A DNA stretch of 64,000 nucleotides from Candidatus Phoenicimicrobium oleiphilum (GCA_039638295.1 JBDIWJ010000002.1:12415-76414); one strand, 5' to 3'; shown: positions 11,519 through 32,795, counted from the stretch's first letter. The notes: generated by a model from the letters alone, not told the origin. Translations and numbers: made by a program.

Positions 11519-13051
11519 CGTTTTTTGATATTTGATCCTCTAACTCTTTTGCTTCTGCATTCAACATTTCCAGTTCCTCATTCAATTCTTCAAGCCGCTC
11601 TTTGAAATCAAACTCATCCTGTTCTTCTTCTGCAACGCCAACATACCTTCCAGGGTTTAAACTCCAACCATGCTCCTCAATCTCCTTTAATGTCGCCACC
11701 TTACATAAACCTGCAACATCCTGATATTCTCCTTGAGGAAAAGTTTCTTTCATAAGTTTTTCACTACCATGCACTATCTCAATATCCTCTCCACGATATA
11801 GTCGGACAATGTTTGCGATAAACTCTTCTGTTCTGGCGAAAATTCATTGTGAGCACGATCAACTGGTGTATATATATCTCGGGCATCAATAAAGAGTACT
11901 TGATTTTCTCTTTTCGTGTTCTTTTTACCACGATCAAAAAACCATAGTGTACAAGGCAGACTTACTGTATAGAAAAAATTCGGTCCAACTGCAATTATAA
12001 TATCTACTACTTTATCCTCAATAATTTTCTTTCTTATTTCTAGCTCAGAATATCCTGCATCAGCTGCAGAATTAGCCATAACAAAGCCAGCTCTGCCTTT
12101 TTCATTTAGAGAGTTTAAAAAGATTTGTATCCAAAGGTAATTGGCATTATCTGCTCTAGGTATGCCATAAGAAAATCTTGGATCATTTTTTAGCTTTTCT
12201 TTGTTAACTCCACTTACATTAAAGGGGGGATTGGACATCACATAATCAAAACGATAAAGAGAATGGTGAGTATCTTCATAAAAAGTATTCCCCTGCCTGA
12301 TATCCCCTTCCAGTCCCCTAACTACTAAATTCATTTTGCATAACTGGATAGTGGAGGCTACTTTTTCCTGCCCAAAAATAGCAATTTCATCAATGGGTTT
12401 TTTATGGTGGCGTTCTACAAACTTTGCACTTTGCACAAACATTCCTGCCGAACCACAAGCTGGGTCATACACCCTGCCATGATATGGCTCAATAATCTCT
12501 GTTATCAGTTTTACAATTGAAGTTGGAGTAAAAAACTCACCGCCTCGCTGACCCTCAGACATAGCAAAATTTCCTAAGAAGTATTCATATATCTTACCAA
12601 AGATATCGCCATCTATATCCATAGGAATTTCGGAAAAAAGCTTAAGAACTGCAATTAAGGTATCGTCATTTAAGCGATCATAACTTTTGGGTAAGACACC
12701 TTTGAGGTTATCATTTTGAGATTCTATCATCCTCATTGCTTCATTGATTGTTTTACCGATATTGGAACCTTCTGGAAGATTCAAAATAGCTGAATATCTA
12801 GCCTGTTCGGGAATATAGAGCATATTTAGAGCCTGATAATCTTCTTTTTTAATGGAAATTCGTCCTAAGCCCTGAGTTATTTTCTTTTTTAATTCTAATT
12901 CCGCTAATTGAAATTTATAATCAGAATATCTTAAGAAGATCAGACCTAATACCGGGATATAAAACTCATTAGGTCTCAAGGCAGTATTTGCCCTCAACTT
13001 ATCGGCAACATTCCACAATCTCTTTTCAATTTCATTATGATTATTTGCCAT
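11487..13051 (-). pseudogene. hsdM: Type I R-M N6-adenine methyltransferase, interrupted by a 1-nt frameshift near 11830
   Basis: The 425-aa ORF (11774..13051) carries the HsdM N-terminal and catalytic NPPF region. The canonical C-terminus ...[65 protein letters not shown] continues in another frame (95-aa ORF 11487..11774). Removing one nt in CCAGAACAGAAGAG restores ...[11 protein letters not shown]. Confidence 0.8.
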
Positions 13052-13072
13052 TTAACCCTCCTGAAATTATCT

Positions 13073-13774
13073 TTATAACATACCTTTATCTGCAAAACTA
13101 AAATAATCATTATCCCCAATAATTATATGGTCTAAAACTTCAATATTGAGAATATGCCCGCCTTGTTTTAACTCTGAAGTAAATTTTTTATCACGACTAC
13201 TCGGAGTGGGATTACCTGATGGATGATTATGAATACATATAATAGAAGATGCGTAATATTTAAGGCACTGATGGAATATTTCTCGCATAATAGGATTTGC
13301 CTGATCTACAGTGCCTTTTTCAATCTCTATGATATCAATCATTTTATTCTTTGAATTAAGAAGTATGGCTTTAAACACTTCTTTTTTCAAATCTCGCATC
13401 CTGGGCATCATAAGTTCTGCCACATCTCGCGATGATTCAATACTGGAATTCTCTTCTAATTTTTCATCTTCCCTAAATCTTCTACCAATTTCGATAGCAG
13501 ATTTAATCTGAGCAATTTTAGCAATGCCCATTCCTTTAATTTCTTTCCATTGTGAAATATCAGAATGGCTCATATTCCGAAAGGTTTTAAACTTATGTAG
13601 AATTCTCCTGGCTAAATCAATAGCACTTTCCCCTTTGCTACCATTTCTCACCAGAATTGCTAATAATTCAGAATTACTTAAAGTATGTTCGCCATTTCTA
13701 AGTAATTTTTCTCTTGGACGGTCGGTAGAAGGCCAATCTTTAATATGAGTGCTATATTTTTTTATTTTAGGCAT
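13073..13774 (-). CDS. radC: RadC-like JAB/MPN domain protein
   Basis: UPF0758 signature with HNHPSGNPTPSSRD (JAMM motif) and N-terminal HhH region. Confidence 0.8.
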   Translation of the reverse strand: MPKIKKYSTHIKDWPSTDRPREKLLRNGEHTLSNSELLAILVRNGSKGESAIDLARRILHKFKTFRNMSHSDISQWKEIKGMGIAKIAQIKSAIEIGRRFREDEKLEENSSIESSRDVAELMMPRMRDLKKEVFKAILLNSKNKMIDIIEIEKGTVDQANPIMREIFHQCLKYYASSIICIHNHPSGNPTPSSRDKKFTSELKQGGHILNIEVLDHIIIGDNDYFSFADKGML

Positions 13775-14811
13775 CTATTGAATATATCCTCATTATCTTA
13801 GTTAACCCATAATCATCAAAGATGTGTCATATTAAAATTAGAAATAATGGTTAATGAACAAAAATTATCCAGTTGTAATACTTCTATTTTCAAAATTTTT
13901 GCCTTATTTCATGTAAAAAAGAGTATTGGATTGCTTCGTATTTGCTGTGGAACAGGTTTTCTTATTTCTTTATAACTTTTTTAATTCTAACATATTTAGT
14001 AATTGATTTCTATAAGTCAGTGGTTGGTTTTCGGTTTTTACTTATAGTAAATAGAACATTTAGCCTATTTACCTTTTTGATTAGTTAAATTTTTAATCAA
14101 ATATTAAGGAAAAACAGATTTCAGGCTCTTAAATTTTACATGTAATATAAGGTAATACCTTTTATCATATAGGGGGATAGATTTTAGTTTTTGTGCTACA
14201 AAATATTCTTTAAAATAAAAATATATCATTTTATTTTACTTAACTATAATAGACCAGTCTCTAGATTGCTACTTCTCCCCTTTCTTCTCAGCAATCCCCT
14301 CTACAGTTTAATCTCTTAATGTATTTTAAAGCGATCCATAGGCTTCTCGATATTCAATTATCTTCTGAGTAATTACCAACTTACCCCTAGAGGATATTCA
14401 ATACTTCTAAAGCAACAGTGATAATATGGATAATTTTTTTTTCTACAATAAAATGATGGGTGCTTAAATTTTATTTATTATAGCAATATATTTTGGCAAT
14501 TAGCCGTCAGGAATATAAAAAAATTTTTTAATTTTTTATTCTAGTAGATTAGTCATCTGGTAGTACAAAAATAATAGCGGTTGGTATTACTTCAATGAGT
14601 GCGAAAACTATTTATATTATAACATAAGGAATGAAAATAATGAAGATTTTTTAGTTGTCAGTCTTCCGTTTTCAGTTCACAGAGAGATAAAGAAAAACAT
14701 AAATGCCAATTGACTGAATTTCATAACCAACTAATAAGTTATTAAACATTTTTTTCTTATTTTTGCTTTTATTCCGTTAATGTACTATTTTGTTTTCTGG
14801 ACAAAATTAGT

Positions 14812-15099
14812 TTATTGTATCTTAATTTGTCTTTTGTAGAATAAATTCAGGAGATAACAATATTTTTTGTGAATTTTCGGGATTAAATAAAAATTGTTTT
14901 CATATTCTACTAATTTCTTAAAATTCAATTCTTTGCAATTTGTTAATAACATAGTGGTGATTTCTTTTAAATAATCCTGAAATTTTAATCCTATCTTTTC
15001 TTTTAAATAACGATAATTTGGCTTTGCCCTGACAAACAAAAAGATAACATCATAGAAATCCCTGCCTATAGGTCGAGGTCTTTTTAAAATAGCTAACAA
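14812..15099 (-). pseudogene. C-terminal remnant of an AbiEii/DUF1814-type nucleotidyltransferase toxin
   Basis: ILKRPRPIGRDFYDVIFL matches the conserved GRDxYDl motif of the AbiEii C-terminal region. The upstream in-frame sequence has no start and hits a stop. It sits in a 2-kb stretch without other ORFs. Confidence 0.4.
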
Positions 15100-15387
15100 C
15101 TCTTTAGCTAATAGTATATCCGGTGGAATACTTTTTATTTTTAAGAGGAGTCAAATTTATTGAGAAAATAAGTGTCTGTCCCTATTATTAATATATAATT
15201 ATATCACAGGGGTTTGACTACAGTATGGCAACAATTGGTGAAAGTTTTTTTAAAAAATTAAAAATTATTATTTTTTTGTTATTTTTCTATTATTATATGA
15301 TTATAAATTAAAAAACCTTAAAAATATTTAAAAACTATTATATGTTGTAAGGGCACAATGAATTGTGACACTATATTGGAAAAAAAT

Positions 15388-15625
15388 AGAGATTGCCGCG
15401 CCCTGATAAACCAGGGCTCGCAATGACAATATATGCAGACGGGATGCTTGTCCTATGTGATTATTAGAGATTGCCACGCCCTGATAAACCAGGGCTCGCA
15501 ATGACAATATATACAGGCGGAATGCTTGTCTTATATGATTGTTAGAGATTGCCGCGTCGCTACGCTCCTCGCAATGACGAAATAGCCATTGTGGGCACGA
15601 TGCATCGTAAACCTATATTATTAAA
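15388..15625. repeat. three tandem copies (78-bp period) of a palindromic repeat unit GATTGCC(G/A)CGCCCTGATAAACCAGGGCTCGCAATGAC, plus a partial GGGCACGATGCATCG palindrome
   Basis: Direct inspection shows unit starts at 15388, 15466 and 15544. The inter-unit sequences are nearly identical (so not CRISPR spacers). Confidence 0.8.
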
Positions 15626-15787
15626 GATTGTTGAAAAAATTATTTAAAATAGTATAATCATAAATGTGTCTTCTGAAAAAATTATATATATTTTTTATTT
15701 AACCGGTCACTTAATTTTCCATTAATTCACTTAAGGAGATAATCTTGGTATTTAGTTGTAGAAAGACATAAAGAAAGGAATGTAGTA

Positions 15788-18736
15788 ATGTCTAAACTAA
15801 TGAAGATTAAAAACTTGAAGAATTATGGTATCCCCTCTTATATTTTAGATATCTGGAAAAAACATTATTCCCCTTATTTGCTACCAGTACAGGAGGAGGC
15901 GGTAAAAAATTTTGGGGTATTGGATTCCCGCTTCCGCGAGAATGATAGACATAAAAACCTTTTAGTGATCGCTCCCACCTCTTCAGGAAAGACCTTCATC
16001 GGAGAAATGGCGGCAGTGTATCAGGTAATCCATCAGAAAAAGACCATCTTTATAGTCCCCTCAAGAGCTTTGGCCAGGGAAAAATACTGGCATTTTAAAA
16101 ACCTTTATGAGTGCTGCGGATTAGAAACAGTCCTCTTCAGTCGAGACCGCAAGGAAGATGATTACCGCCTAATTATAGGTGACTATAAATTAGCGGTAAT
16201 GTCCTACGAAAAATTTTATTATTTCCTCTTGAAATTCCCCGAATTTCTAACTAGTGTCTCCTTGATAGTAATGAATGAAGTACAGATGATTGATAACCCC
16301 AGATGGGGACCTATCCTGAAAGAGGTGATAGACCTGCTGCGGGGAAAGTATATGCCAAATCTCAGGATTATCGCTCTTTCTACCTTAATAGAAAATCAAA
16401 AAGCCCTCTTAAAATGGTTTCCCGCTCATCCCTTCATTTCTCATCAGCACCCGCAAGAGATACGCAAAGGGATAGTAAGAAAGGGAGTTTTTAAGTATAT
16501 CACCTCAAATAAGAAGAAGACTTTCAAAAAAGAAATATTCTTTAAACCAAATGCCGTCCGGGATAATTGTTTTAAAGATTATCTTCTGGAAACAGTAAGA
16601 TACTTTGTAAATAAAGATGAGCCGACTCTGGTCTTCTTTACTACCTCAGCTGAGACCCGAAAGTGGGCCAAATGGCTAGCTTCTCAATTAGAAACCCCTG
16701 CTGCCTCTTCTGCCCTAAGGGAACTTGCGGAAATGGAAGAGACCCTATCCCGGGAGGAATTGTCTGAGCTATTAAAAAAGGGGATTGCCTATTATAGTCA
16801 GGACCTTTCCTGGGAAGAGAAAAATTTAGTCGAGACTTACCTCAAAAAGGGAGAGATAAAATTGGTCTGTTCTACTATTACCCTATCAACCGGGGTTCAT
16901 ATGCCTTTTAAGAATGTCATAGTTCCTCAAGATATGTTGAATAATTTTGATGAAAATTGTCCCCATAATTATCGAAGAGGTCTTACCTTTTTCGATATAG
17001 AAAATATGAGTGGAAGTGCCAGGGTATCAGGATTTGGTCGAGTAATCTTTTTAGCCTATTCTCTCCTCACTGAGACCATCTTTCATAATCTCTATTTCAA
17101 TTATAATCATAATTATAATCATTATAGGACTTCAAAAACTCAAATAAAAAAGGTAGATGACCTGCTCACTTTCTTGTTGTACTTACTGTCTAAATATAAC
17201 TGCCAACCAGAGAAGATAAAAAATTATTTAAGGGAAGGAAAATTTATCTTTCCCGGAAATCAGAATAAATCTGCTGAAAAAGAAGACTGCTTCTGTGGTT
17301 ACTGGCAGTTTAGCTTTAACCAGGATAATTTAGAGGAAAAGATAGATAATTATCTGAATATTTTAAAAGAGAATAAATTGATTAGAGAGAACAGAGACGG
17401 TATCTTATCTCCTACTATCAATGGTACTCTAATTACTGCTAAGAATATCAAGGTAGAAACTTATCTTTTTTTAAAAAACTGGATGAAACATAGTAAGAAG
17501 GGGGAAATCAGTGATCTGGAGATACTCCTTCTTTTAGCCTTTAGTCCGAATGGTATGGAAATTTTCCTCCCCTGCTCTTCTTCTTGCCGAGATACTTATA
17601 AAAAAGAAAGATATAATCTCGACTGGACAGGGAATTACTGGAACAAACTCCTACAACTGGTCTTTGAACAGGATGAAGAGGATAAGAAGATTTATCAGGA
17701 CATACTTATATTGAAGAAAGAAAAGGAAGAGAAGTTGGAATGGAAGGATTATCTAGCTTTTAAGAAGACTCATTTACTGTATGACTGGATAAAGGAGAGT
17801 AAGGATATTAAAACCCTGGAACAGGAGTATGACCTCTATGGAGGGACTATTCGGAGATTGGTAGATAATTTTTCCTGGCTGACTGATAGTTTGGCAGAAA
17901 TAGCAGAAAGCGAAGGCTGGGGTAAGGATAGAAAAGATGATTTAAATAAGATAAAGAGGCTATCCAAAAGATTGATTGATGGTGTAGAAGAAGATGGTCT
18001 GAATTTATCTCAGTTATATATCCCTGGATTAAGCCGATATTATATAAGAAAATTGGTAGAAGCAGGGTATAGTGATAAGAAATGTTTTAAGGAGACCTCG
18101 GAGGAAAAATTAAGGAAGGTACTGCCCGAGAGATTGGTTAAAAGGATTCAAAAGATGATAAAGGAAGAAAAAGAGATTTTGAAGGGTAAAAGACAAAAGA
18201 TGATGGTTGAGGTTAGAAAATTAGAAGATAGGAAGAGGGAATTAGAAACTAATAAACTTACACCTGAAGCTGGGAAACTAGAACCTGAATTTTATTCTTT
18301 AAAATCTGAAACTGAAAATTATAAATCCAGGCTAATAGCTGAAGACCAAGATGTTGCAATTCGTCAACCCCTGCCCAAAAAGAAAAACTATGAGCCAAAG
18401 ATTATCCTGGAAATTGATCAGCACCGCCCGGATAGGATTATTTTTGAGGAGAAAGAAATAAAACTCACCCCCTTAGCCTTTTCTCTTATCTATTTATTAG
18501 CACAAAACCGAGGAAAGGTATTGTCTTATAATTATATCTCGGATACTCTGTGGAAGGAAGACAAAGATGCTACATACCATCGTCTCTGGTATCATCTATC
18601 TAATGCAAAAAATAATATTATAAAAAGAATCGGTAAAAATAAAAAAAATCAAAATAAAATCAAAAATCTCCTTAAAGTAATTAGAGGAAGAGGCTTGATA
18701 TTGAATATTGAGGAAAAGCAATTAAAAATTCTATAA
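15788..18736 (+). CDS. Hel308/Ski2-like SF2 helicase with degenerate motif II, fused to coiled-coil and C-terminal OmpR/PhoB-type winged-helix DNA-binding domain
   Basis: Walker A APTSSGKT and motif Ia PSRALAREK are present. Motif II reads NEVQ instead of DEVH and motif III reads LST instead of SAT. RecA2 motifs (TLSTGVHMP) are retained and there is a Hel308-type HhH near 730. The C-terminal residues about 860-982 (KLTPLAFSLIYLLAQNRGKVLSYNYISDTLW...) are a trans_reg_C-like winged helix. Confidence 0.8.
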   Translation: MSKLMKIKNLKNYGIPSYILDIWKKHYSPYLLPVQEEAVKNFGVLDSRFRENDRHKNLLVIAPTSSGKTFIGEMAAVYQVIHQKKTIFIVPSRALAREKYWHFKNLYECCGLETVLFSRDRKEDDYRLIIGDYKLAVMSYEKFYYFLLKFPEFLTSVSLIVMNEVQMIDNPRWGPILKEVIDLLRGKYMPNLRIIALSTLIENQKALLKWFPAHPFISHQHPQEIRKGIVRKGVFKYITSNKKKTFKKEIFFKPNAVRDNCFKDYLLETVRYFVNKDEPTLVFFTTSAETRKWAKWLASQLETPAASSALRELAEMEETLSREELSELLKKGIAYYSQDLSWEEKNLVETYLKKGEIKLVCSTITLSTGVHMPFKNVIVPQDMLNNFDENCPHNYRRGLTFFDIENMSGSARVSGFGRVIFLAYSLLTETIFHNLYFNYNHNYNHYRTSKTQIKKVDDLLTFLLYLLSKYNCQPEKIKNYLREGKFIFPGNQNKSAEKEDCFCGYWQFSFNQDNLEEKIDNYLNILKENKLIRENRDGILSPTINGTLITAKNIKVETYLFLKNWMKHSKKGEISDLEILLLLAFSPNGMEIFLPCSSSCRDTYKKERYNLDWTGNYWNKLLQLVFEQDEEDKKIYQDILILKKEKEEKLEWKDYLAFKKTHLLYDWIKESKDIKTLEQEYDLYGGTIRRLVDNFSWLTDSLAEIAESEGWGKDRKDDLNKIKRLSKRLIDGVEEDGLNLSQLYIPGLSRYYIRKLVEAGYSDKKCFKETSEEKLRKVLPERLVKRIQKMIKEEKEILKGKRQKMMVEVRKLEDRKRELETNKLTPEAGKLEPEFYSLKSETENYKSRLIAEDQDVAIRQPLPKKKNYEPKIILEIDQHRPDRIIFEEKEIKLTPLAFSLIYLLAQNRGKVLSYNYISDTLWKEDKDATYHRLWYHLSNAKNNIIKRIGKNKKNQNKIKNLLKVIRGRGLILNIEEKQLKIL

Positions 18737-19084
18737 GGCAAAATTTATGTATCTATAATTTTTAACATTATTTCCAATTTTCTCTCTCATTTAAATTTAA
18801 TTTCACCCTTTTTTCAATCTTATCTTAATCCTCACTTTTAAATCATTCATTATTTTTAAAATCATAAATTTCTTGACTTTTCTTCTTCATTTTTTTTCAA
18901 AAAAACCATCCAAAATTACAAAAAATATTCAAAATAATTAATAATTTTTTTAATAGCTTACGATTAGGATTGAAAATAAAGGCTTACAAAAATATTTTTT
19001 ATCGAATGAAATTAGACTAAAATTTTAACAAAATTAGACTGAAATTAGACTACAAATCAGGGTCTTTTATGTTCTAATAAAAAG

Positions 19085-19440
19085 GGTTAGCCAAAATAGT
19101 CGTTAGTCGTTAGTAGGGCAGGCTCACCTGTCTAGGTAACTGTAGGGCTACGATGTATCTGCCCACATAATTGCTCAATGTCATTGCGAGCGACTATAGG
19201 GAGCGTGGCAATTTCAAATGTAGGGGTTCGATTCATCGAACCCGTTTCGGGGCAGATAAATTAGACCCCTACTTTAAATGTCATTGCGAGCCCTGATTTA
19301 TCAGGGCGTGGCAATCTCATAAGTGTAGGGGCACGATGCATCGTGCCCAGGAAAAACAAATGACCATAAAACAGGGAGGGCACAATTCATTGTGCCCCTA
19401 CAATAATCTCATCTCAAGCTAACCAAAACTTCTAACAGAA
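19085..19440. repeat. cluster of concatenated palindromic repeat units (all four core types)
   Basis: Contains GTCATTGCGAGCGACTATAGGGAGCGTGGCAAT, GTAGGGGTTCGATTCATCGAACCC, GTCATTGCGAGCCCTGATTTATCAGGGCGTGGCAATCTC and GTAGGGGCACGATGCATCGTGCCC...GGGCACAATTCATTGTGCCCCTACAA. Confidence 0.8.
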
Positions 19441-19451
19441 AGGGAAGATAT

Positions 19452-20432
19452 ATGGAAAAAGAAAGACCAAATATTAAAACTAAATTATCTGAAGAAGGTT
19501 ATGTTATTATACCAGCTTATTTTTTAAATAATTGGACCGAAGTATTAGGAACCGGGCCAAGTATGCTGTATATTCAATTACTTAATTACTGTTATAAGGG
19601 AAAGGATATAGCCTGGCCTACTTTGACTACCTTAAGTAAGAAGATGCAACTTACTCCCAAGACTATAACCAGATACCAGAAGGTATTAACCAAATATGGC
19701 TTGATTAAAAAGATAGTCAAGAGAAAGACTTCTTTAGGAAGTTGTAGGAGAAATATTTACCAAGTTACTCCCTTAGATAAGGTAAAAAATTCCCCCCTTA
19801 TGAGTAATTTTTTCCCCTATATAGAGGAAAAAATTACCCCTAATATAGGGAAAAATTTACCCCTAAAGCATAACAATATAAACAATACCAATACAACAAC
19901 AACAAAAGCTGCTGTTGCTGATTTTAAAAAAAGAAAAGGAGAAGAAAAGATGAAAACCCTAAGAGAACAACTACAGGATTTAGATTTTAAAGAAAGCTTT
20001 ATCGAGAAATTACTGAAAGATTTTGACCTTAAGAAGATTGAGGAGAAATTAGATCTGTTATTGGTAAGGAGGAATATCCAGAACCCTACCGGCTGGCTCT
20101 ATGCTGCCTTAAAGAATGATTATCAGGACCCCCAATCCTCTCTGTCCTTCCCGCCATCCCCTTTGTCATTCCCGCGAAAGCGGGAATCCATTAAATCTCC
20201 CCACCAGGAGTCTATGAAGCAAGGTAGGGGCACGATGCATCGTGCCCAGGAAAAACAAATAACCATAAAACAGGGAGGGCACAATTCATTGTGCCCCTAC
20301 AAAATCATAAGTAATGGCAATCTCAGAGAAAATCCTCCCGAACCAGCCTCCCGCCAGAAAGCCCTAAAGGCTATAAGACTCATCCGAAAGAATCTCTCTT
20401 CCCTCTCCCCGGGAGGGAGAGGACCAGGCTGA
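19452..20432 (+). CDS. HTH_36-type helix-turn-helix protein (phage/plasmid replication-organizer-like); C-terminal about 90 codons read through repeat elements
   Basis: N-terminus YVIIPAYFLNNWTEVLGTGPSMLYIQLLNYCYKGKDIAWPTLTTLSKKMQLTPKTITRYQKVLTKYGLIKK matches the HTH_36 pattern. After about residue 235 the frame runs into the repeat cluster at 20140-20430 without a stop. Confidence 0.55.
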   Translation: MEKERPNIKTKLSEEGYVIIPAYFLNNWTEVLGTGPSMLYIQLLNYCYKGKDIAWPTLTTLSKKMQLTPKTITRYQKVLTKYGLIKKIVKRKTSLGSCRRNIYQVTPLDKVKNSPLMSNFFPYIEEKITPNIGKNLPLKHNNINNTNTTTTKAAVADFKKRKGEEKMKTLREQLQDLDFKESFIEKLLKDFDLKKIEEKLDLLLVRRNIQNPTGWLYAALKNDYQDPQSSLSFPPSPLSFPRKRESIKSPHQESMKQGRGTMHRAQEKQITIKQGGHNSLCPYKIISNGNLRENPPEPASRQKALKAIRLIRKNLSSLSPGGRGPG

Positions 20433-20625
20433 GGATAGAATATATGAGTTTGATTCATCGAACCCGGTAATCGTAGGACAGGCGTCTCGCCTGTTTAGGC
20501 AAATGTAGGGGTACGATGTATCGTGCCCCCATAACAGCAATAGTGTCATTGCGAGCCCTGATTTATCAGGGCGTGGCAATCTCAAATGTAGGGGCTTTAT
20601 TTATCAAGCCCCCCAGAAAGGAGAA
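20140..20625. repeat. about 500-bp array of palindromic repeat units ending in an AGAAAGGAGAAGATTA ribosome-binding sequence
   Basis: GTCATTCCCGCGAAAGCGGGAATC, GTAGGGGCACGATGCATCGTGCCC...GGGCACAATTCATTGTGCCCCTACAA, CCTCTCCCCGGGAGGGAGAGG, GTAGGACAGGCGTCTCGCCTGT and GTCATTGCGAGCCCTGATTTATCAGGGCGTGGCAATCTC, followed by the GAAAGGAG RBS. Confidence 0.8.
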
Positions 20626-20631
20626 GATTAG

Positions 20632-20955
20632 ATGTCTGAACTAAAAGAACTAATTTTACAGGCCAAACAGAAAGACGTAAAGGCAATGGAGGAATTATTT
20701 CTAAAATTTAGACCCTTACTAAAATCCCAAGCCAAAAGGTATGCCAGAGCAGGATTAGAATATGAGGAGGTCTTCCAACAGGCCTCCTTACTCTTTATCC
20801 TGGCAGTCTATGACTACCAGGAAAAGGAAAGTATTCCCTTTGCCGGCTATGTTAAAAAGAGAATCAATTGGGGGCTGTGGATGTACTATCGGAAATATCT
20901 TAAACAAAGAATAGAGATCTCCTCTGGCCTAAAACCAGAAGAACTGAACCAGTAG
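20632..20955 (+). CDS. sigma-70 region 2-only protein (RsoA/co-sigma-like half of a split sigma factor)
   Basis: FLKFRPLLKSQAKRYARAGLEYEEVFQQASLLFILAVYDYQEKESIPFAGYVKKRINWGLWMYYRKY resembles sigma-70 region 2.1-2.4 (group 4/5 sigma). The stop codon TAG is supplied by the first bases of the inserted repeat. Confidence 0.65.
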   Translation: MSELKELILQAKQKDVKAMEELFLKFRPLLKSQAKRYARAGLEYEEVFQQASLLFILAVYDYQEKESIPFAGYVKKRINWGLWMYYRKYLKQRIEISSGLKPEELNQ

Positions 20956-21095
20956 GACAAGCATCTTGCCTGTCCAGGCAAATGTAGGGGCACGATGTAT
21001 CGTGCCCCCATAATGGCAATAATGTCATTGCGAGCGACTATAGGGAGCGTGGCAATCTCAACCGTAGGGACCTGTTTCATCAAACCCATAGAAAG
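20953..21095. repeat. palindromic repeat element inserted between the sigma region-2 and region-4 ORFs, carrying the AGAAAGGAGAAGATTA RBS at its 3' end
   Basis: GTAGGACAAGCATCTTGCCTGTCC, GTAGGGGCACGATGTATCGTGCCCCC, GTCATTGCGAGCGACTATAGGGAGCGTGGCAATCTC, then AGAAAGGAGAAGATTA. The same 16-mer precedes the ORF at 20632. Confidence 0.8.
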
Positions 21096-21105
21096 GAGAA
21101 GATTA

Positions 21106-21306
21106 TTGGATAGATTAGAACATATCTTAATAAAAATCGATCTAAAAGAAGCTTATAAACGACTAACCGAAAGAGAAAAGAAGATTATCACTCTTTATTA
21201 TCTGGAAGGATATAAAGATGAAGAGATAGCCAGATTATATGGAATCAATCGTCAAAATGTAAATCGTCAACGTAAACGAGGAATATCAAAATTAAAAATA
21301 TTTTAA
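21106..21306 (+). CDS. sigma-70 region 4-only protein (SigO-like half of split sigma factor), TTG start
   Basis: LDRLEHILIKIDLKEAYKRLTEREKKIITLYYLEGYKDEEIARLYGINRQNVNRQRKRGISKLK is a sigma region 4.2 HTH. The TTG start lies 8 nt after the GAAAGGAG RBS. The listed 103-aa ORF has a repeat-derived N-terminus. Confidence 0.6.
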   Translation: MDRLEHILIKIDLKEAYKRLTEREKKIITLYYLEGYKDEEIARLYGINRQNVNRQRKRGISKLKIF

Positions 21307-21393
21307 TTTTTTTTAAATAACTGTAGCGAAATCACCCCTTTTTTGCATCTATATAAATAGAGGGAGTTTTTAGTCAAACTAAAAACAGTAACC

Positions 21394-21464
21394 AGTAATG
21401 AGTAATAAGTAAAAGCCATAAAGATACAAAATTACCTTGTTTATCACTTATTACTCGTTACTTA
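21394..21464 (+). other. long imperfect inverted repeat (about 19-nt arms, 30-nt loop) between the sigma gene and DUF1659 gene; candidate terminator/attenuator
   Basis: AGTAATGAGTAATAAGTAA ... TCACTTATTACTCGTTACT. Confidence 0.35.
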
Positions 21465-21469
21465 TTACC

Positions 21470-21493
21470 CTAATTGACCTATAGGTCAATTAG
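21470..21493. promoter_or_regulatory. perfect 24-bp palindrome CTAATTGACCTATAGGTCAATTAG, candidate operator
   Basis: Perfect dyad 20 nt upstream of the DUF1659 gene RBS. It shares the GGTCAATT core with downstream AATTGGT iterons. Confidence 0.4.
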
Positions 21494-21514
21494 GCAGAAG
21501 GGAGGTGATTAATA

Positions 21515-21742
21515 ATGGCCACAGTCGTCATAGTTCCCCGAGATTCATCTTTACAACTAAGACTGGTAGCTGGCACTAATCCTACTACCGGAGCACCTAT
21601 CATTCAAGCCAAGACTTTTAATAAAATAAAGTCCAGTGCAATCGACCAGGATATCTATGATGTAGCTACTGCCTTGGTAGGGCTACAGAAGTACCCGGTA
21701 GATGAGATCAGACTGGAAAAAGAATCCCAATTAACTGAATAG
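21515..21742 (+). CDS. small protein, DUF1659-like
   Basis: 75 aa with GGAGGTG RBS. Resembles the Firmicutes DUF1659 family, which pairs with DUF2922. Confidence 0.45.
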   Translation: MATVVIVPRDSSLQLRLVAGTNPTTGAPIIQAKTFNKIKSSAIDQDIYDVATALVGLQKYPVDEIRLEKESQLTE

Positions 21743-21825
21743 TCGTTAGCTCAAAAGAAAGTAAATATTTAAAAATAAATCAATCAATCAACCTTCCCTA
21801 ATTGGCAATGGTCAACCATATTTAT

Positions 21826-21863
21826 GAATTGGTCAATTGGTGGATTGGTGAATTGGTCAATTG
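21826..21863 (+). promoter_or_regulatory. five direct AATTGGT iterons (GAATTGGTCAATTGGTGGATTGGTGAATTGGTCAATTG) immediately upstream of RBS
   Basis: Direct inspection. A similar triple iteron lies at 22919-22946. Confidence 0.35.
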
Positions 21864-21881
21864 ATAAGGAGGTGAAAACAG

Positions 21882-22154
21882 ATGGCTACCACTTTAGGAC
21901 AAGTAACCACATATAAGAGATTGTATATGCAGTTTAGAGATAGTGCAGGAAAATCGGTAAACCTTACCCTAAATAACCCTAAGACTGTAGAGGATGGAGA
22001 TTATGTGGATTTTGCAGCCCAGGATACCGCTATTGAGGGGGTAATGGATACCATCATTGCCAAGAACATCTTCCATAATAATGGTAATGACTTAGTAGCT
22101 AAAGTCAATGCTCGAATCCTTGATTACAAGTCTACTGATGTTATGGATGTATAG
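21882..22154 (+). CDS. small protein, DUF2922-like
   Basis: 90 aa with AAGGAGGTG RBS. Pattern ...LTLNNPKTVEDGDYVDFAAQD..IIAKNIF...LVAKVNARI resembles DUF2922. Confidence 0.45.
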   Translation: MATTLGQVTTYKRLYMQFRDSAGKSVNLTLNNPKTVEDGDYVDFAAQDTAIEGVMDTIIAKNIFHNNGNDLVAKVNARILDYKSTDVMDV

Positions 22155-22189
22155 CTCAGGGGCTACCACCCCTTGGCGGTTAGCTGGTT

Positions 22190-22345
22190 AGCTAGTTTAC
22201 CAGTTAAGTTCCTGGGGGAGGTAACTCCCTCAGGAACAGATATGTAGGGGTCTGATTCATCAGACCCGAACAATAATGGGTCGGATAAATCCGCCCCCCT
22301 ACCCTAAAAGTCATTGCGAGCGACTGAAAGGAGCGTGGCAATCTC
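22190..22345. repeat. palindromic repeat units (GTAGGGGTCTGATTCATCAGACCC, GGGTCGGATAAATCCGCCCCCCTACC, GTCATTGCGAGCGACTGAAAGGAGCGTGGCAATCTC)
   Basis: Direct inspection. Confidence 0.75.
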
Positions 22346-22380
22346 TTAAAAACTATTTTCGACTGAAAGGAGAAAATTAT

Positions 22381-22761
22381 ATGTTAGAAACAATTTTAAG
22401 TAAATATCTATTAAATGCCTTACTTATTGCTATCGTCTCTCTCGGTTATGGTCTCTTAAAAAACAGATTAGGAGAAGAGAGAGCTAACACCATTAAAGAG
22501 GCCATTCTCTCGGCTATGCTCTGGGCAGAAGAGGAATTGGGTATAGGCAATGGGAGTAAGAAATGGGAGATAGCCTGGCAAAAGCTTATAGAGATATTAG
22601 CCGAGAAGAATATCAGCCTGAGAAAGTCAGAGGAGAAAGCGGTAAAGACGATGATGAAAGCCAATATTGGGAAGATTAACCGACAGACCTATGATGTCTT
22701 ATTGAAGAAAAAACTTTTGAAAGACAAAGGTCCTGTTCAGCAGGCAATCCCCCTAAACTAG
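22381..22761 (+). CDS. phage holin, LL-H (Phage_holin_6_1)-like
   Basis: ATG at 22381 after CGACTGAAAGGAG RBS. N-terminal TM helix, then ...IKEAILSAMLWAEEELGIGNGSKKWEIAWQKLIEIL typical of LL-H holins. Confidence 0.5.
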   Translation: MLETILSKYLLNALLIAIVSLGYGLLKNRLGEERANTIKEAILSAMLWAEEELGIGNGSKKWEIAWQKLIEILAEKNISLRKSEEKAVKTMMKANIGKINRQTYDVLLKKKLLKDKGPVQQAIPLN

Positions 22762-22774
22762 CCATTGTTTAATA

Positions 22775-22900
22775 ATTGTCGGTTGGATAGGCGTCTCGCC
22801 TGTCTACAATGTCATTGCGAGCCCTGTTTTATCAGGGTGGTACAATCTCTACTGTAGGGAATCGATTCATCTAACCTGTCTTTTTGAGTCGGATAAATCC
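22775..22900. repeat. palindromic repeat units (GGATAGGCGTCTCGCCTGTCTACA, GTCATTGCGAGCCCTGTTTTATCAGGGTGGTACAATCTC, GAGTCGGATAAATCCGTCCCCTACA)
   Basis: Direct inspection. Confidence 0.75.
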
Positions 22901-22975
22901 GTCCCCTACATAATTAGACAATTGGTAGATTGGAGAATTGGTAAATTAACTAACGACTGAAAGGAGTTAGTTCTT

Positions 22976-23356
22976 ATGCAGATGTTAAATGAAGTAAATA
23001 ACATCGATATTGCTCCTTACTTTAAATTATCTGAATTTGCCTGCCCCTGTTGCCGACAGGTGATCTTACACCCTCTACTCTTAAAGAAACTCAGTAAGTT
23101 AAGAGAAACAGTTAATAGACCTCTCTACATTACCTCTGGCTATCGCTGTCTCGGGTATAATCGGAAAGTAGGTGGGATAAAGACCAGTTATCACCTTCTG
23201 GGTCTGGCCGCAGATGTTAGGGCAAAAGGGATGTCTGCCCTTGACCTTTTAGAATATGCGGAGATTATCAATTTTTCGGGAATCGGTTTTTACGAGAAGA
23301 GGAATTTCCTGCATCTGGATGTCCGACCTACTAAACAGAGCCGCTGGAGGGGATAA
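22976..23356 (+). CDS. peptidase M15A family (YcbK/DUF882-like L,D-peptidase; endolysin-type)
   Basis: SEFACPCC...ITSGYRCLGYNRKVGGIKTSYHLLGLAADV...LHLDVR carries the H-x6-D ... H zinc-binding pattern of M15 peptidases. Confidence 0.8.
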   Translation: MQMLNEVNNIDIAPYFKLSEFACPCCRQVILHPLLLKKLSKLRETVNRPLYITSGYRCLGYNRKVGGIKTSYHLLGLAADVRAKGMSALDLLEYAEIINFSGIGFYEKRNFLHLDVRPTKQSRWRG

Positions 23357-23384
23357 AATAGTCGTTAGTAGGAAAGAAGTTAAG

Positions 23385-23590
23385 ATAAGAGACGTAGGGG
23401 CACGATGTATCGTGCCCAGGATAAACAAATGACGATAAAGCAGAGAGGGCACAATTCATTGTGCCCCTACAAAATCATAATAAACAATAATGTCATTGCG
23501 AGCGACTATAGGGAGCGTGGCAATCTCATAATTTATTAGATTGCTTCGTCGTTACACTCCTCGCATTGACATTTTGAGATTGGTATATTG
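23385..23590. repeat. palindromic repeat units including an inverted pair of GTCATTGCGAGC...GCGTGGCAATCTC units
   Basis: GTAGGGGCACGATGTATCGTGCCC...GGGCACAATTCATTGTGCCCCTACAA then GTCATTGCGAGCGACTATAGGGAGCGTGGCAATCTC and a diverged reverse copy GATTGCTTCGTCGTTACACTCCTCGCATTGACATT. Confidence 0.75.
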
Positions 23591-23608
23591 AATTAAAGGA
23601 GGGAATAT

Positions 23609-23878
23609 ATGGATATAAAGACATGGTTAGATATAATTGCTAACCAGGGCTTCCCTATTGCCTTATCAATACTCTTAATTTTTCGTATCGACAGATTTAT
23701 GCAGGAGATAGTGACTGCCCAGAAAGAAGGCTATCGGCAAGTCCTGGAAAACACCAAGGAGATACACAATACTATCACTACTTTAAATCAGCAGAACCGG
23801 GAATATTATTCCTTGCGCTTCTCAGAAGTACAGAAGGAACTCTCTGGAATGAAGGTAGAACTGGGGAAAATTGAATAA
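23609..23878 (+). CDS. BhlA/UviB-family holin-like protein
   Basis: MDIKTWLDIIANQGFPIALSILLIFRIDRFMQE... has an N-terminal TM followed by a coiled coil, like BhlA/UviB bacteriocin-release holins. Confidence 0.55.
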   Translation: MDIKTWLDIIANQGFPIALSILLIFRIDRFMQEIVTAQKEGYRQVLENTKEIHNTITTLNQQNREYYSLRFSEVQKELSGMKVELGKIE

Positions 23879-23892
23879 TTTGGGGTAATAAT

Positions 23893-23940
23893 AAGAGCCA
23901 GGTCTTTTAAATATCAATAGATCTGGCTCTTATTATTTAA
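23893..23940. terminator. bidirectional rho-independent terminator between convergent genes
   Basis: AATAAGAGCCAGGTC...AGATCTGGCTCTTATT hairpin followed by a T-run. Confidence 0.6.
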
Positions 23941-23993
23941 AACACTATTTCTCTTCTATTTTTCTATGTTCTATTTAAATATTTTTGACTCAA

Positions 23994-32726: not shown

Positions 32727-32795
32727 CTACAGTTGAGATTGCTACACCTTGATAAATCAGTAAGGAGGGCACGATGCATCGTGCCCCTACAATTG
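32701..32795. repeat. palindromic repeat units upstream of dprA
   Basis: GGGTTCGATAAATCGAACACCTACAGTTGAGATTGCTACACCTTGATAAATCAG and GGGCACGATGCATCGTGCCCCTACAA. Confidence 0.75.

What the first reader, a model, noticed from the sequence alone, without database searches (positions are those of the whole stretch)
15788..18736. Standalone Hel308-like helicase with degenerate DExH (NEVQ) fused to an OmpR-type winged-helix DNA-binding domain
The 982-aa protein has an intact Walker A (APTSSGKT), motif Ia, and RecA2 motifs IV-VI, plus a Hel308-type HhH domain. The catalytic motif II reads NEVQ instead of DEVH and motif III reads LST instead of SAT. Those changes predict ATP binding with little hydrolysis or unwinding. 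A coiled coil (residues about 745-850) then links to a C-terminal trans_reg_C-like winged helix (ILEIDQHRPDRIIFEEKEIKLTPLAFSLIYLLAQNRGKVLSYNYISDTLW...). I do not know of a described family combining a Ski2/Hel308 scaffold with an OmpR wHTH. Architecture suggests a nucleic-acid-sensing transcription regulator, or a single-gene defense protein (Hachiman HamB is Hel308-like but needs HamA, which is absent here). It is flanked by repeat clusters, between a decayed AbiEii locus and a phage-derived module.
Basis: partly seen in the sequence, partly recalled or inferred. Interest (0 to 1): 0.7.

Follow-up and report, generated by a model that had tools for sequence, protein, structure and literature searches.

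The report
Helicase that doubles as transcription factor
This Atribacterota gene fuses a Hel308-type DNA helicase to an OmpR/PhoB-type DNA-binding domain that appears to read a dedicated set of 11-bp repeats in front of the next operon, so a repair-type helicase seems to serve here as the input of a gene switch; this copy has also lost key ATPase residues.

Summary
The ORF, its Hel308 fold, its OmpR-type winged helix and the NEVQ/LST motifs are real. Three points of the reading change. (1) Q in motif II and the missing T in motif III are family traits (DE[LM][QE], LSA). Only N163, T199 and the loss of the motif VI arginine (S410) are private to this protein, which is the most deviant of 120 relatives. 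A canonical paralogue lies in another assembly that carries the identical protein. (2) The fusion is not rare: it occurs across Atribacterota, Hydrogenedentota, Armatimonadota and other phyla, named only "DEAD/DEAH box helicase". (3) It is not standalone. In Atribacterota it heads a conserved nine-gene cassette: DnaD-like HTH protein, split sigma factor, SroA/SroB-like proteins, holin-like protein, M15 peptidase, YvrJ-like protein.

New finding: in 68 cassettes an array of about four direct repeats with an exact 11-bp period abuts a conserved promoter-like block downstream of the helicase gene. The repeat core co-varies with the winged-helix domain (Mantel r about 0.6) and with no other cassette protein (r 0.12-0.16). 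The window keeps its array (19008-19051).

Best reading: a one-component regulator with a helicase as input. This copy is probably ATPase-dead but still DNA-binding. No experiment supports any step.

The parts
15631..15658 (+). Promoter-like site of the helicase gene (TTGAAA-16-TATAAT)
   Evidence: Best sigma-70-type match in 15100-24100, 11 of 12 positions. The same 'type A' promoter recurs upstream of the helicase in about 25 Atribacterota loci. Unlike 'type B' promoters it has no GAAC-N4-GTTC-like box.
15788..18736 (+). Gene for the 982-aa Hel308-like helicase with a C-terminal OmpR/PhoB-type winged helix
   Evidence: ORF; domains; fold; more than 120 relatives at 50-61% identity with the same architecture.
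16274..16285 (+). Motif II, NEVQ (residues 163-166)
   Evidence: Aligns with DELH of Hel308 2va8. The family has DEMQ/DELQ/DELE. This is the only member with N among 120 + 64 sequences.
17006..17026 (+). Motif VI remnant, MSGSARV (residues 407-413)
   Evidence: Aligns with MSGRAGR of 2va8. G-R-A-G-R is nearly universal in the family, and both arginines are invariant in distant relatives. Here the first arginine is serine.
18395..18733 (+). Winged-helix DNA-binding domain (residues 870-982)
   Evidence: Trans_reg_C above Pfam's cut-off. A profile of 50 such domains hits only OmpR/PhoB-family DNA-binding domains in the PDB (2hqn 7e-15, ArlR, SaeR, CpxR, PhoB 1gxp 8e-9). pLDDT is 85-90 in the full model.
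19008..19051 (+). Array of four 11-bp direct repeats: GAAATTAGACT, AAAATTTTAAC (degenerate), AAAATTAGACT, GAAATTAGACT. Inferred binding site of the winged helix.
   Evidence: TRF: period 11, 4.4 copies; sequence. It is the only tandem cluster of this unit in the window. Homologous arrays occur in 68 cassettes, and the unit co-varies with the winged-helix domain. L142 and L169 have the same unit and share the recognition-helix class.
19049..19078 (+). Promoter-like block abutting the array (ACTACA, 18 nt, TG-T-TCTAAT)
   Evidence: The block [GA]ATACA-N17/18-TGnT[GCT]TAAT follows the array directly in nearly all cassettes. Its function is inferred.
19452..20432 (+). HTH_36 / DnaD-N-like protein (326 aa)
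   Evidence: Pfam HTH_36. PHROG DnaD-like loader and replication-initiator families. Follows the helicase in every cassette with enough sequence. Its variable C-terminal tail carries a REP-derived segment.
20632..20955 (+). Sigma-70 region 2 protein (107 aa), first half of a split sigma factor
   Evidence: Pfam Sigma70_r2. Aligns only to the N-terminal part of SigF/G/H/E models. It is a separate gene in L001-L004 as well.
21106..21306 (+). Sigma-70 region 4 protein (66 aa from TTG 21106), second half of the split sigma factor
   Evidence: Pfam Sigma70_r4 / r4_2. Matches positions 103-162 of 165 in TIGR02937. RBS and TTG start. The longer ORF from 20995 begins inside a REP element.
21515..21742 (+). 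DUF1659 protein (SroA-like, 75 aa)
   Evidence: Pfam DUF1659, 75.6 bits. 76-84% identical across cassettes.
21882..22154 (+). DUF2922 protein (SroB-like, 90 aa)
   Evidence: Pfam DUF2922, 63.2 bits. 85-93% identical across cassettes.
22390..22761 (+). Holin-like membrane protein (123 aa from ATG 22390)
   Evidence: PHROG holin, 4.5e-8. Pfam Phage_holin_6_1 just below its cut-off. Start taken from the alignment of upstream regions.
22976..23356 (+). Peptidase_M15_3, endolysin-like (126 aa)
   Evidence: Pfam, 81 bits. PHROG endolysin, 1.5e-36.
23609..23878 (+). Conserved 89-aa protein, weakly YvrJ-like; last gene of the cassette
   Evidence: 89-94% identical across cassettes. YvrJ 21 bits, below Pfam's cut-off.

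Best explanation
The protein belongs to a large, unnamed bacterial family. In it a complete five-domain Hel308-type SF2 helicase is joined by a flexible linker to an OmpR/PhoB-type winged helix.

In Atribacterota the winged helix most likely binds head-to-tail to about four 11-bp direct repeats. Each repeat has a 6-7 bp specific core and an A-rich spacer, which is the layout of a pho box. The array lies just after the helicase gene and abuts the weak -35 of the promoter of the next operon. That operon encodes a DnaD-like HTH protein and a two-gene split sigma factor. It is followed by SroA/SroB-like proteins, a holin-like protein, an M15 peptidase and a YvrJ-like protein.

The helicase-wHTH protein would thus be a one-component regulator, probably an activator, whose input module is a DNA helicase. 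Each paralogous cassette in a genome has its own matched pair of recognition helix and repeat.

The window's copy has lost the motif II aspartate and the first motif VI arginine, so it probably binds but does not hydrolyse ATP and does not translocate. It keeps its winged helix and three good repeat units, so it most likely still acts as a DNA-binding regulator. A canonical paralogue is found in another assembly that carries the identical protein.

Shown: the architecture, the cassette, the arrays and the covariation. Inferred: actual binding, the sign of regulation, loss of ATPase activity, and the signal (possibly ssDNA or DNA damage).
For: Architecture and fold.

Family size and spread.

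Cassette: the same nine genes in the same order in the window, L001-L004 and L025, and partly in every other Atribacterota locus long enough. L001 and L003 show an intrinsic terminator after the helicase gene, so the next operon needs its own promoter.

Arrays: in 68 loci the best 11-bp-period array scores well above periods 8-14. It usually has 3.9-4.5 copies and directly precedes the conserved block GATACA-N17/18-TGnTGTAAT.

Specificity: the table of recognition-helix class against repeat core is nearly one-to-one.
- Mantel r between repeat unit and wHTH domain is 0.58 (43 loci) and 0.61 (24 non-redundant cassettes), p = 5e-4.
- Against the helicase core r is 0.16, helicase domain 4/5 0.12, HTH36 N-terminus 0.12-0.16, sigma region 2 0.12, sigma region 4 0.15.
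- Partial r(unit, wHTH | core) = 0.56, while r(unit, core | wHTH) = -0.02.
- L142 has a helicase core only 45% identical to the window's, yet a wHTH 76% identical and the same TTAGACTGAAA array.
- L169 has the same array but a different type of HTH36.
- The array is the only local cluster of its core.

Degenerate ATPase. This protein deviates at 28 of 268 conserved columns, against a family median of 4.

Paralogy: assembly LDZT01 holds both this protein (P0269) and the canonical P0104. Single-cell genome AAA255-G05 holds two cassettes whose helicases are 55% identical.
Against: - There is no experiment. Binding is inferred from covariation. The wHTH coding region lies only 130-300 bp from the array, so shared recombination blocks could contribute. 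The HTH36 N-terminus, which lies at a similar distance on the other side, shows no such correlation.
- A-tracts phased at 11 bp can be plain curved DNA upstream of a promoter.
- The sign of regulation is unknown.
- Outside Atribacterota no such arrays were found next to the gene, except in L033, so the regulator role may be lineage-specific.
- The window protein's extra substitutions are spread over the whole protein and are not significantly concentrated in the motor (12% against 7% of conserved columns, p = 0.30). That also fits general decay.
- In one other sample, the contig that carries the same protein has a cassette that breaks off after the sigma genes (L085).
Confidence: 0.6

Rival explanations
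1. Origin-binding helicase of a cryptic replicon. The 11-bp repeats are iterons of a replication origin. The winged helix is an origin-binding domain, as in phage P4 alpha protein or viral initiator helicases. The DnaD-like protein is the loader, and the cassette is a remnant of an integrated element.
For: - Iteron-like arrays lie next to a gene whose product hits PHROG 'DnaD-like helicase loader / replication initiation protein' families.
- The lysis genes look phage-like.
- Several divergent cassettes occur per genome, each with its own matched repeat and binding domain, as with incompatibility groups.
- The sequence upstream of the array is AT-rich.
Against: - No integrase or structural genes occur in any cassette.
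- There are no relatives in 50,697 phage records, in IMG/VR, or (full-length) in 72,556 plasmids.
- The array sits at a fixed position against a conserved promoter-like block.
- Hel308-type helicases act as monomeric 3'-5' translocases, not ring-shaped replicative helicases (established knowledge).
- In other phyla the gene sits alone among ordinary chromosomal genes.
Confidence: 0.12
2. The window's gene is a decaying paralogue without function. After duplication of the cassette, one helicase copy lost selection and is on its way to becoming a pseudogene. The family-level function is as in the best explanation or in the repair rival.
For: - It is the most deviant of 120 family members, at 28 conserved columns against a median of 4, and the changes are spread over all regions.
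- Catalytic residues are lost.
- A canonical paralogue lies in another assembly that carries the identical protein.
- REP elements have invaded the cassette's spacers.
- One repeat unit is degenerate.
- A contig from another sample has a truncated cassette (L085).
Against: - The 2,949-bp reading frame is open in an AT-rich genome where stop codons arise easily.
- The identical sequence occurs in three assemblies.
- The recognition helix and three of four repeat units match L142 and L169 despite 35-55% divergence elsewhere in the protein.
- The second unit is also divergent (AAAATTCGACC) in L169, whose helicase has canonical motifs.
- The other cassette genes are 63-94% identical to orthologues.
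Confidence: 0.15
3. Plain DNA-repair helicase. The family is a damage-inducible Hel308-like repair or recombination enzyme. The winged helix is only a generic duplex-DNA handle, like the winged-helix domains of RecQ or Hel308 itself, and the arrays belong to another factor.
For: - Perfect GAAC-N4-GTTC boxes (the LexA site of many Gram-positive phyla) occur within 200 bp upstream of the gene in 5 loci against 0.33 expected. One-mismatch boxes occur 19 times against 6.8 expected.
- lexA lies directly upstream, in the same direction, in L036, L062 and L080.
- About 20 Atribacterota loci have a conserved AAACTTTTGTTC box after the -10.
- The motor motifs are intact in all other members.
Against: - A generic handle would not co-vary with a nearby repeat sequence.
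- The domain is the sequence-specific OmpR/PhoB type, not the helicase-type WH.
- The strict synteny with the sigma cassette would remain unexplained.
- Damage induction and a regulator role are compatible with each other.
Confidence: 0.08
4. Single-gene or Hachiman-like anti-phage defence protein in a defence island.
For: - PADLOC HamB models match the helicase core (best 88.6 bits, residues 51-379).
- In Atribacterota the upstream flank is rich in restriction-modification, AbiE, PLD-SNF2 and Schlafen/AlbA genes.
- A holin-endolysin output would fit abortive infection.
Against: - No HamA is present in the window or in the cassettes.
- The HamB match covers only the shared SF2 core, and the PDB HamB chain scores far below Hel308.
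- Outside Atribacterota the neighbours are ordinary genes with no defence enrichment.
- The cassette is conserved across the phylum rather than patchy.
Confidence: 0.05

Closest known systems
Archaeal Hel308/Hjm (PDB 2va8, 2p6r, 2zj8) and the helicase domain of human Pol theta
   Same: - The same five-domain layout: RecA1, RecA2, winged helix, ratchet, helix-hairpin-helix.
- It is the best sequence and fold match over about 800 residues.
   Different: - About 22% identity, and the score lies far below the NCBIfam equivalog cut-offs (220 against 887).
- Motif II is DExQ/DExE in the family, not DExH.
- There is an extra 180-residue linker plus OmpR-type winged helix.
- The family is bacterial.
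- This copy also lacks the motif II aspartate and a motif VI arginine.
PhoB and the OmpR/PhoB family of winged-helix effector domains (PhoB-pho box, PDB 1gxp)
   Same: - The C-terminal domain matches the family profile.
- The inferred sites are tandem direct repeats with an 11-bp period, a specific core and an A/T-rich spacer, placed against a weak -35. That is the pho-box layout (own knowledge of PhoB).
   Different: - There is no receiver domain and no cognate kinase. The domain hangs on a 790-residue helicase.
- Four repeats are typical rather than two.
ATPase-coupled one-component regulators with an OmpR-type domain (SARP/AfsR-type STAND regulators); also ToxR and CadC as non-receiver OmpR-type regulators
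   Same: An OmpR-type DNA-binding domain is driven by something other than a receiver domain. In AfsR-type proteins a large NTPase is fused to it (own knowledge; CadC and ToxR DNA-binding domains appear among the hits).
   Different: - The NTPase here is an SF2 DNA helicase, not a STAND or AAA+ module.
- The winged helix is C-terminal.
- No BTAD or TPR domains are present.
Initiator helicases with an origin-binding domain (phage P4 alpha, SV40 large T antigen)
   Same: A helicase is fused to a sequence-specific DNA-binding domain with a matched set of short direct repeats nearby (own knowledge for P4 and SV40; for this family).
   Different: - Those are SF3 ring helicases on mobile replicons.
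- This is an SF2 Hel308 type on chromosomes, absent from the phage, viral-contig and plasmid collections.
- Its repeats abut a promoter-like block.
[quoted passage not shown]
   Same: - Sigma region 2 and region 4 are encoded by two separate genes, as in RsoA/SigO (PMC8103513).
- DUF1659 and DUF2922 genes lie in tandem under a nearby alternative sigma factor, as with sroAB (bioRxiv 10.1101/2022.10.19.512975).
- The last gene is weakly YvrJ-like, and yvrJ is a SigO-RsoA target.
   Different: - Direct orthology to SigO/RsoA was not tested.
- The cassette also has a helicase-wHTH gene, a DnaD-like protein, a holin-like protein and an M15 peptidase.
- The phylum is different.
HamB of the Hachiman defence system
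   Same: A Ski2/Hel308-like SF2 core.
   Different: - No HamA partner.
- Only the core matches.
- A different C-terminus.
- Conserved chromosomal synteny instead of a two-gene defence operon.

Membership tests
Hel308 / Ski2-like SF2 helicases | Five-domain fold: RecA1, RecA2, winged helix, ratchet, helix-hairpin-helix | tested here: met
   Foldseek top hits are 2va8, 2zj8, 9b15 and 2p6r over about 800 columns, TM (normalised to the target) 0.65-0.73. Pfam Helicase_dom4_arc is found. The model has only moderate confidence (pLDDT 66.8).
Hel308 / Ski2-like SF2 helicases | Score above the curated Hel308 equivalog cut-off | tested here: not met
   NF002654 220 bits against 887; NF040935 198 against 1200. 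This is a relative, not an orthologue.
Hel308 / Ski2-like SF2 helicases | Catalytic motifs: Walker A GKT, motif II DExH, motif III SAT, motif VI QxxGRAGR | tested here: not met
   Walker A is intact. Motif II is NEVQ, motif III LST, motif VI MSGSARV. The family as a whole has DE[LM][QE], LSA and GRAGR.
Hel308 / Ski2-like SF2 helicases | DNA-stimulated ATPase and 3'-5' unwinding | not testable with these tools
   Needs a biochemical assay.
OmpR/PhoB-type winged-helix DNA-binding domain (Trans_reg_C) | Profile match above the curated cut-off | tested here: met
   Pfam 31.8 bits against 26.2. A profile of 50 family domains hits only OmpR/PhoB-type domains in the PDB, best 7e-15.
OmpR/PhoB-type winged-helix DNA-binding domain (Trans_reg_C) | Topology: N-terminal beta-sheet, three helices, C-terminal beta-hairpin wing | tested here: met
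   DSSP of the full model: strands 874-876, 883-886 and 889-892; helices 895-906, 914-921 and 930-948; wing strands 962-965 and 969-972; pLDDT 85-90. A single-sequence model of the domain alone was too poor to use (pLDDT 44).
OmpR/PhoB-type winged-helix DNA-binding domain (Trans_reg_C) | Binds tandem direct repeats spaced one helical turn apart, near a promoter | tested here: inconclusive
   Such arrays exist and co-vary with the domain. Binding itself has not been measured.
Two-component response regulators | N-terminal receiver domain with a phospho-acceptor aspartate | tested here: not met
   No Response_reg match. The N-terminal 800 residues are helicase.
Hachiman (HamA + HamB) | HamB helicase encoded next to a HamA (PF08878) nuclease | tested here: not met
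   No HamA among the window neighbours or in the cassettes. HamB models match residues 51-379 only.
Two-subunit sigma factor (SigO-RsoA type) | Sigma region 2 and region 4 on two separate adjacent genes | tested here: met
   20632-20955 matches region 2 only and 21106-21306 region 4 only. The split is conserved in L001-L004, so the REP element between the two genes did not cause it.
Two-subunit sigma factor (SigO-RsoA type) | Orthology to B. subtilis SigO and RsoA | not tested
   No SigO or RsoA model or sequence was compared. The resemblance rests on PMC8103513.
SroA/SroB pair (DUF1659 + DUF2922) | Tandem small genes with these two domains | tested here: met
   DUF1659 75.6 bits and DUF2922 63.2 bits, both above their cut-offs.
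Initiator helicase with origin-binding domain (P4 alpha type) | Ring-forming SF3/SF4 helicase on a mobile replicon with iterons | tested here: not met
   The fold is SF2 Hel308. No phage, viral-contig or full-length plasmid relatives were found. Iteron-like repeats are present.

The most novel reading that the evidence does not exclude
A Hel308-derived helicase has been recruited as the sensor module of a one-component transcription factor. Binding of ssDNA or branched DNA (from damage or foreign replication) to the helicase body, possibly together with oligomerisation, lets about four winged helices occupy a private pho-box-like array. This switches on a split-sigma cascade that ends in a holin-like protein and an M15 peptidase, giving programmed lysis or holin-dependent export.

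Paralogous cassettes in one cell are kept apart by co-evolved pairs of recognition helix and repeat. The window's copy is a pseudo-helicase that has kept only the sensing and binding functions.
Probability: 0.3. Interest if true: 0.9.

Novelty: new variant of a known kind. Interest (0 to 1): 0.78.

Why it matters
Hel308/HELQ-type helicases are known as repair and recombination enzymes, not as sequence-specific gene regulators. OmpR/PhoB-type domains are known with receiver, membrane-sensor or STAND inputs, not with a helicase.

If the inference holds, this family would be a direct link between DNA-structure sensing and promoter control. The link is found phylum-wide in Atribacterota, and the fusion itself occurs in several other phyla. 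It comes with a ready set of about a dozen natural, apparently orthogonal protein-operator pairs.

It would also give a first functional handle on a conserved cassette in Atribacterota, a phylum with very few cultured members. The parts of that cassette (split sigma factor, SroA/SroB, YvrJ) are poorly understood even in Firmicutes.

The window's ATPase-degenerate paralogue is a natural separation-of-function variant: it keeps the winged helix and its operator but has lost key ATPase residues.

Tried and rejected
- Enrichment of this protein's substitutions in the motor domains was not significant (21 of 172 against 7 of 96 conserved columns, p = 0.30), so I do not claim motor-specific relaxation.
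- The palindrome GGTTGGCCAACC upstream of HTH36 occurs in L001 and L002 only and not in the window, so I dropped it as an operator.
- Searches for relatives on phages (INPHARED), IMG/VR viral contigs and plasmids found nothing full-length.
- There is no conserved partner gene outside Atribacterota: LexA 3, response regulators 3 and WYL 2 of 92 upstream neighbours; Phosphodiest 6 of 73 downstream neighbours.
- A search for 10/11-bp arrays near the gene in other phyla found only L033.
- No secondary copies of each cassette's own repeat core were found elsewhere in the loci.
- The per-column mutual information between wHTH residues and repeat class was blurred, because A-rich units merged into one class. 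Positions 931 and 934 of the recognition helix rank high, but so do loop positions. I did not use it.
The single-sequence model was too poor for a fold search, so I used a profile search of PDB sequences instead.
- The promoter of lexA in L001 shows no GAAC-N4-GTTC box. The identity of the repressor that binds the AAACTTTTGTTC box in Atribacterota therefore stays open.
- I looked for promoters dependent on the split sigma factor upstream of the late cassette genes only by eye.

Full report
**1. The observation**

The window holds an ATG-to-stop ORF of 982 aa at 15788-18736 (+).
- Pfam finds DEAD (54-199), Helicase_dom4_arc (637-732) and Trans_reg_C (889-947; 31.8 bits, cut-off 26.2). Helicase_C is only weak.
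- NCBIfam Hel308-type models align over residues 5-809, but with 220 bits against a cut-off of 887.
- An AlphaFold model built on 46 relatives (mean pLDDT 66.8; the C-terminal domain 85-90) matches Hel308/Hjm chains over about 800 columns.
- A profile of 50 C-terminal domains hits only OmpR/PhoB-family DNA-binding domains in the PDB.
- The phmmer alignment to S. solfataricus Hel308 places NEVQ on DELH, LST on LSA(T), and MSGSARVSGF on MSGRAGRPGF.

Motif VI is also degenerate. The 'coiled coil' is a single helix (781-820) followed by a disordered linker (821-873).

**2. Family traits and private changes**

Among 120 relatives at 50-61% identity, motif II is DEMQ (or DELQ, DEAQ, DEMH), motif III is LSA and motif VI is GGRAG. 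Only this protein has N163, T199 and S410.

Across 64 sequences from several phyla the pattern is DE[LM][QE], LSA and GRAGR, with the same single exception. The missing histidine and threonine are thus family traits. Pfam's DEXQc_Suv3 model even matches many members.

The loss of the metal-binding aspartate and of a phosphate-contacting arginine is private to this protein. From established SF2 biochemistry these two changes should abolish hydrolysis while leaving the P-loop intact. This is an inference.

The protein deviates at 28 of 268 strongly conserved columns, against a median of 4 and a next-highest value of 17. The excess is not significantly concentrated in the motor.

The identical sequence occurs in three assemblies. 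One of them, LDZT01, also holds a canonical paralogue, P0104 (L004). A single-cell genome (AAA255-G05) likewise holds two cassettes whose helicases are 55% identical.

**3. Spread of the fusion**

- A pattern scan of one genome per GTDB species confirmed 468 relatives of the helicase. They lie in Atribacterota (40-60% identity) and, at 24-31%, in Hydrogenedentota, Armatimonadota, Zipacnadia, Myxococcota, Nitrospirota and others.
- Most complete ORFs among the non-Atribacterota loci fetched still end in the OmpR wing motif, such as PKRGFxLDL.
- A profile search of 1.84 billion cluster representatives gave 1,094 proteins at E <= 1e-30. The best are mostly 840-1070 aa long.
- 22 of 53 distant representatives hit Trans_reg_C at E <= 1e-3.
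- Sources name these proteins only 'DEAD/DEAH box helicase' or 'hypothetical'.
- Four literature searches found no description of the fusion.

**4. Genomic context**

In the window and in every Atribacterota locus with enough sequence, the helicase gene is followed, on the same strand, by:
- an HTH_36 / DnaD-N-like protein;
- a sigma region 2 protein and a separate sigma region 4 protein;
- DUF1659 and DUF2922 proteins;
- a holin-like protein;
- a Peptidase_M15_3;
- an 89-aa, weakly YvrJ-like protein.

The flanks differ from locus to locus. Upstream they are often restriction-modification, AbiE or PLD-SNF2 genes, and downstream metabolic genes. The small proteins are far more conserved (85-94% identity) than the helicase.

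The split sigma factor recalls SigO-RsoA, one of whose targets is yvrJ (PMC8103513). DUF1659 and DUF2922 are the SigS-induced SroA and SroB of S. aureus (bioRxiv 10.1101/2022.10.19.512975).

Outside Atribacterota there is no conserved neighbour. There is, however, a link to the SOS system:
- lexA lies directly upstream and co-directional in three loci.
- Perfect GAAC-N4-GTTC boxes lie within 200 bp upstream in five loci, against 0.33 expected.
- About 20 Atribacterota loci have a promoter TTGCAAT-17-TAAAAT followed by a conserved AAACTTTTGTTC box.

The window's gene has the other promoter type, TTGAAA-16-TATAAT at 15631-15658, without a box.

**5. The repeat arrays**

In L001 and L003 the helicase gene ends with an intrinsic terminator. 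In all ten cassettes first examined, an array of direct repeats with an exact 11-bp period follows. The array runs straight into a conserved block, GATACA-N17/18-TGnTGTAAT, which looks like a promoter with a weak -35 and an extended -10.

With 80 more loci from metagenomes, 68 loci show such an array. It usually has 3.9-4.5 copies and scores far above any other period. Each unit is a 6-7 bp core plus an A-rich spacer, which is the layout of a pho box (my own knowledge of PhoB).

The core differs between cassettes and follows the recognition helix of the winged helix almost one-to-one:

| Recognition helix | Repeat unit |
|---|---|
| YHRLWYHLSN | TTAGACTGAAA |
| YNRVSFHxSK | CTCAT[AC]GAAAA |
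| YTRINYHICK | TTCG[GT]T[AT]GAAA |
| YTRIIQHIxxF | CAAATCGAAAA |
| YVQIT[YFS]HLYK | TAAACAAAAAA |
| YSRVSYHFSK | CATAGAAAAAA |

Mantel tests of repeat-unit distance against protein distance:

| Protein part | r, 43 loci | r, 24 non-redundant cassettes |
|---|---|---|
| wHTH domain | 0.58 (p = 5e-4) | 0.61 (p = 5e-4) |
| Helicase core (residues 1-800) | 0.16 | not tested |
| HTH36 N-terminus | 0.155 | 0.12 |
| Helicase domains 4/5 | not tested | 0.12 |
| Sigma region 2 | not tested | 0.12 |
| Sigma region 4 | not tested | 0.15 |

The partial correlation with the wHTH, given the helicase core, is 0.56. The reverse, core given wHTH, is -0.02. The HTH36 N-terminus lies at a distance from the array similar to that of the wHTH coding segment, so linkage alone does not explain the pattern.

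Two cases make the point concrete.
- L142 has a helicase core only 45% identical to the window's, with canonical motifs. Its wHTH is 76% identical and it has the same array.
- L169, the closest relative, has the same array, including a weak second unit, but an HTH36 of another type.

The array is the only local cluster of its core.

**6. The window's array**

The units are GAAATTAGACT (19008-19018), AAAATTTTAAC (19019-19029, degenerate), AAAATTAGACT (19030-19040) and GAAATTAGACT (19041-19051). ACTACA follows, and after 18 nt comes TG-T-TCTAAT, ending at 19078. REP elements have been inserted into the long leader before the HTH36 start at 19452.

The degenerate-ATPase copy therefore keeps both its reading head and its operator.

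**7. Mechanism**

Most likely (0.6) the winged helix binds the array and controls the HTH36-sigma operon. The position against a weak -35 suggests activation of the PhoB type. The split sigma factor would then drive the late genes.

The helicase body would be the input. Its ligand is unknown. The SOS links and the biology of Hel308 point to ssDNA or branched DNA.

Four units might match a tetramer, since Pol theta helicase domains form tetramers (PDB entries). This is speculation.

The window's copy would be a regulator that no longer needs, or can no longer use, ATP turnover.

The rivals are:
- an origin-binding initiator helicase of a cryptic replicon (0.12);
- plain decay of this copy (0.15), which is compatible with the family-level model;
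- a repair helicase with a generic DNA handle (0.08);
- a defence protein (0.05).

**8. Novelty**

Both halves of the protein are known kinds. The combination is not described in the literature I could search. That combination is a Hel308-type helicase as the input of an OmpR-type one-component regulator, with matched private operators, at the head of a split-sigma and lysis-like cassette.

I rate it a new variant of a known kind, with high interest. All functional steps remain computational inferences.

Noticed in passing
window 25298-25384 (-): A c-di-GMP-I riboswitch (87 bits, gathering score 35) lies just upstream of the minus-strand gene 23994-25253. That gene encodes a DUF4382 / CarboxypepD_reg / PEGA-domain protein.
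   Followed up: no
window, 24 sites, e.g. 19329-19348, 20228-20247, 32767-32786, 59903-59922; also 15389-15428, 15467-15506, 19279-19318, 20544-20583: Two families of REP-like hairpin elements are scattered through the window: GGGCACGATGCATCGTGCCC and GAGATTGCC..GCCCTGATAAACCAGGGC..CAATGACA. They fill the spacers of the cassette. They are translated inside ORFs: the variable tail of HTH36, and the false 5' extensions of the sigma region 4 and holin ORFs. The 78-bp tandem duplication at 15387-15553 is made of them.
   Followed up: partly
window 21400-21514, 21760-21881, 22900-22975; the same positions in L001-L003, L090-L149: The leaders of the DUF1659, DUF2922, holin and M15 genes carry three conserved features. 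There are TTACTCATTAC-type repeats. A perfect palindrome such as TAATTGACCTATAGGTCAATTA lies right before the RBS. There are tandem 8-bp AATTGGTN arrays (e.g. 21827-21863). The sequences vary but the layout is conserved. They may be sigma-dependent promoters or RNA structures.
   Followed up: partly
L036 9273-9899, L062 3564-4235, L080 5520-6161; boxes in L045, L051, L052, L060, L066; Atribacterota L007, L009, L014, L017, L024, L025, L129, L137, L142 and others: lexA lies directly upstream of the helicase-wHTH gene in three non-Atribacterota loci. Perfect GAAC-N4-GTTC boxes are about 15-fold enriched upstream of the gene. A conserved AAACTTTTGTTC box follows the -10 in about 20 Atribacterota loci. 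Together these suggest SOS control of many family members.
   Followed up: partly
L085 15836-18493 (same helicase protein as the window, from another sample): In this contig the cassette stops after the sigma region 4 gene. It continues with a PemK toxin gene, a glycosyltransferase gene and DUF1670 genes instead of DUF1659, DUF2922, holin and M15. This is either a strain-level rearrangement or a REP-mediated misassembly.
   Followed up: no
window 10055-13774 (-) and 14812-15099 (-): Upstream of the cassette lie a Schlafen/AlbA_2-HATPase_c_4 protein, a type I HsdM methylase and RadC. HsdS and HsdR lie further on in L085. There is also a 95-aa ORF with only a faint AbiEii match (14.4 bits).
   Followed up: no
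alignment A3 (distant family representatives): One distant relative of the helicase carries a Sigma54_activat AAA+ domain (3.7e-61). This would be a second kind of fusion of this helicase with a transcription-regulator module, or it is a gene-call fusion.
   Followed up: no
L033 7378-7405: This is the only non-Atribacterota locus with an 11-bp array near the gene: TCGACGCTTTG x 2.5, 202 bp after the helicase stop in a Myxococcales MAG and about 280 bp before a plus-strand ORF (7685-8164).
   Followed up: no
window 31247-31320 (-): One tRNA gene (Rfam, 57.4 bits).
   Followed up: no
window 14000-24000: GC skew and coding strand flip in this stretch (positive skew, plus-strand genes) relative to the rest of the window (negative skew, minus-strand genes). 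This sets the cassette apart from its surroundings.
   Followed up: no
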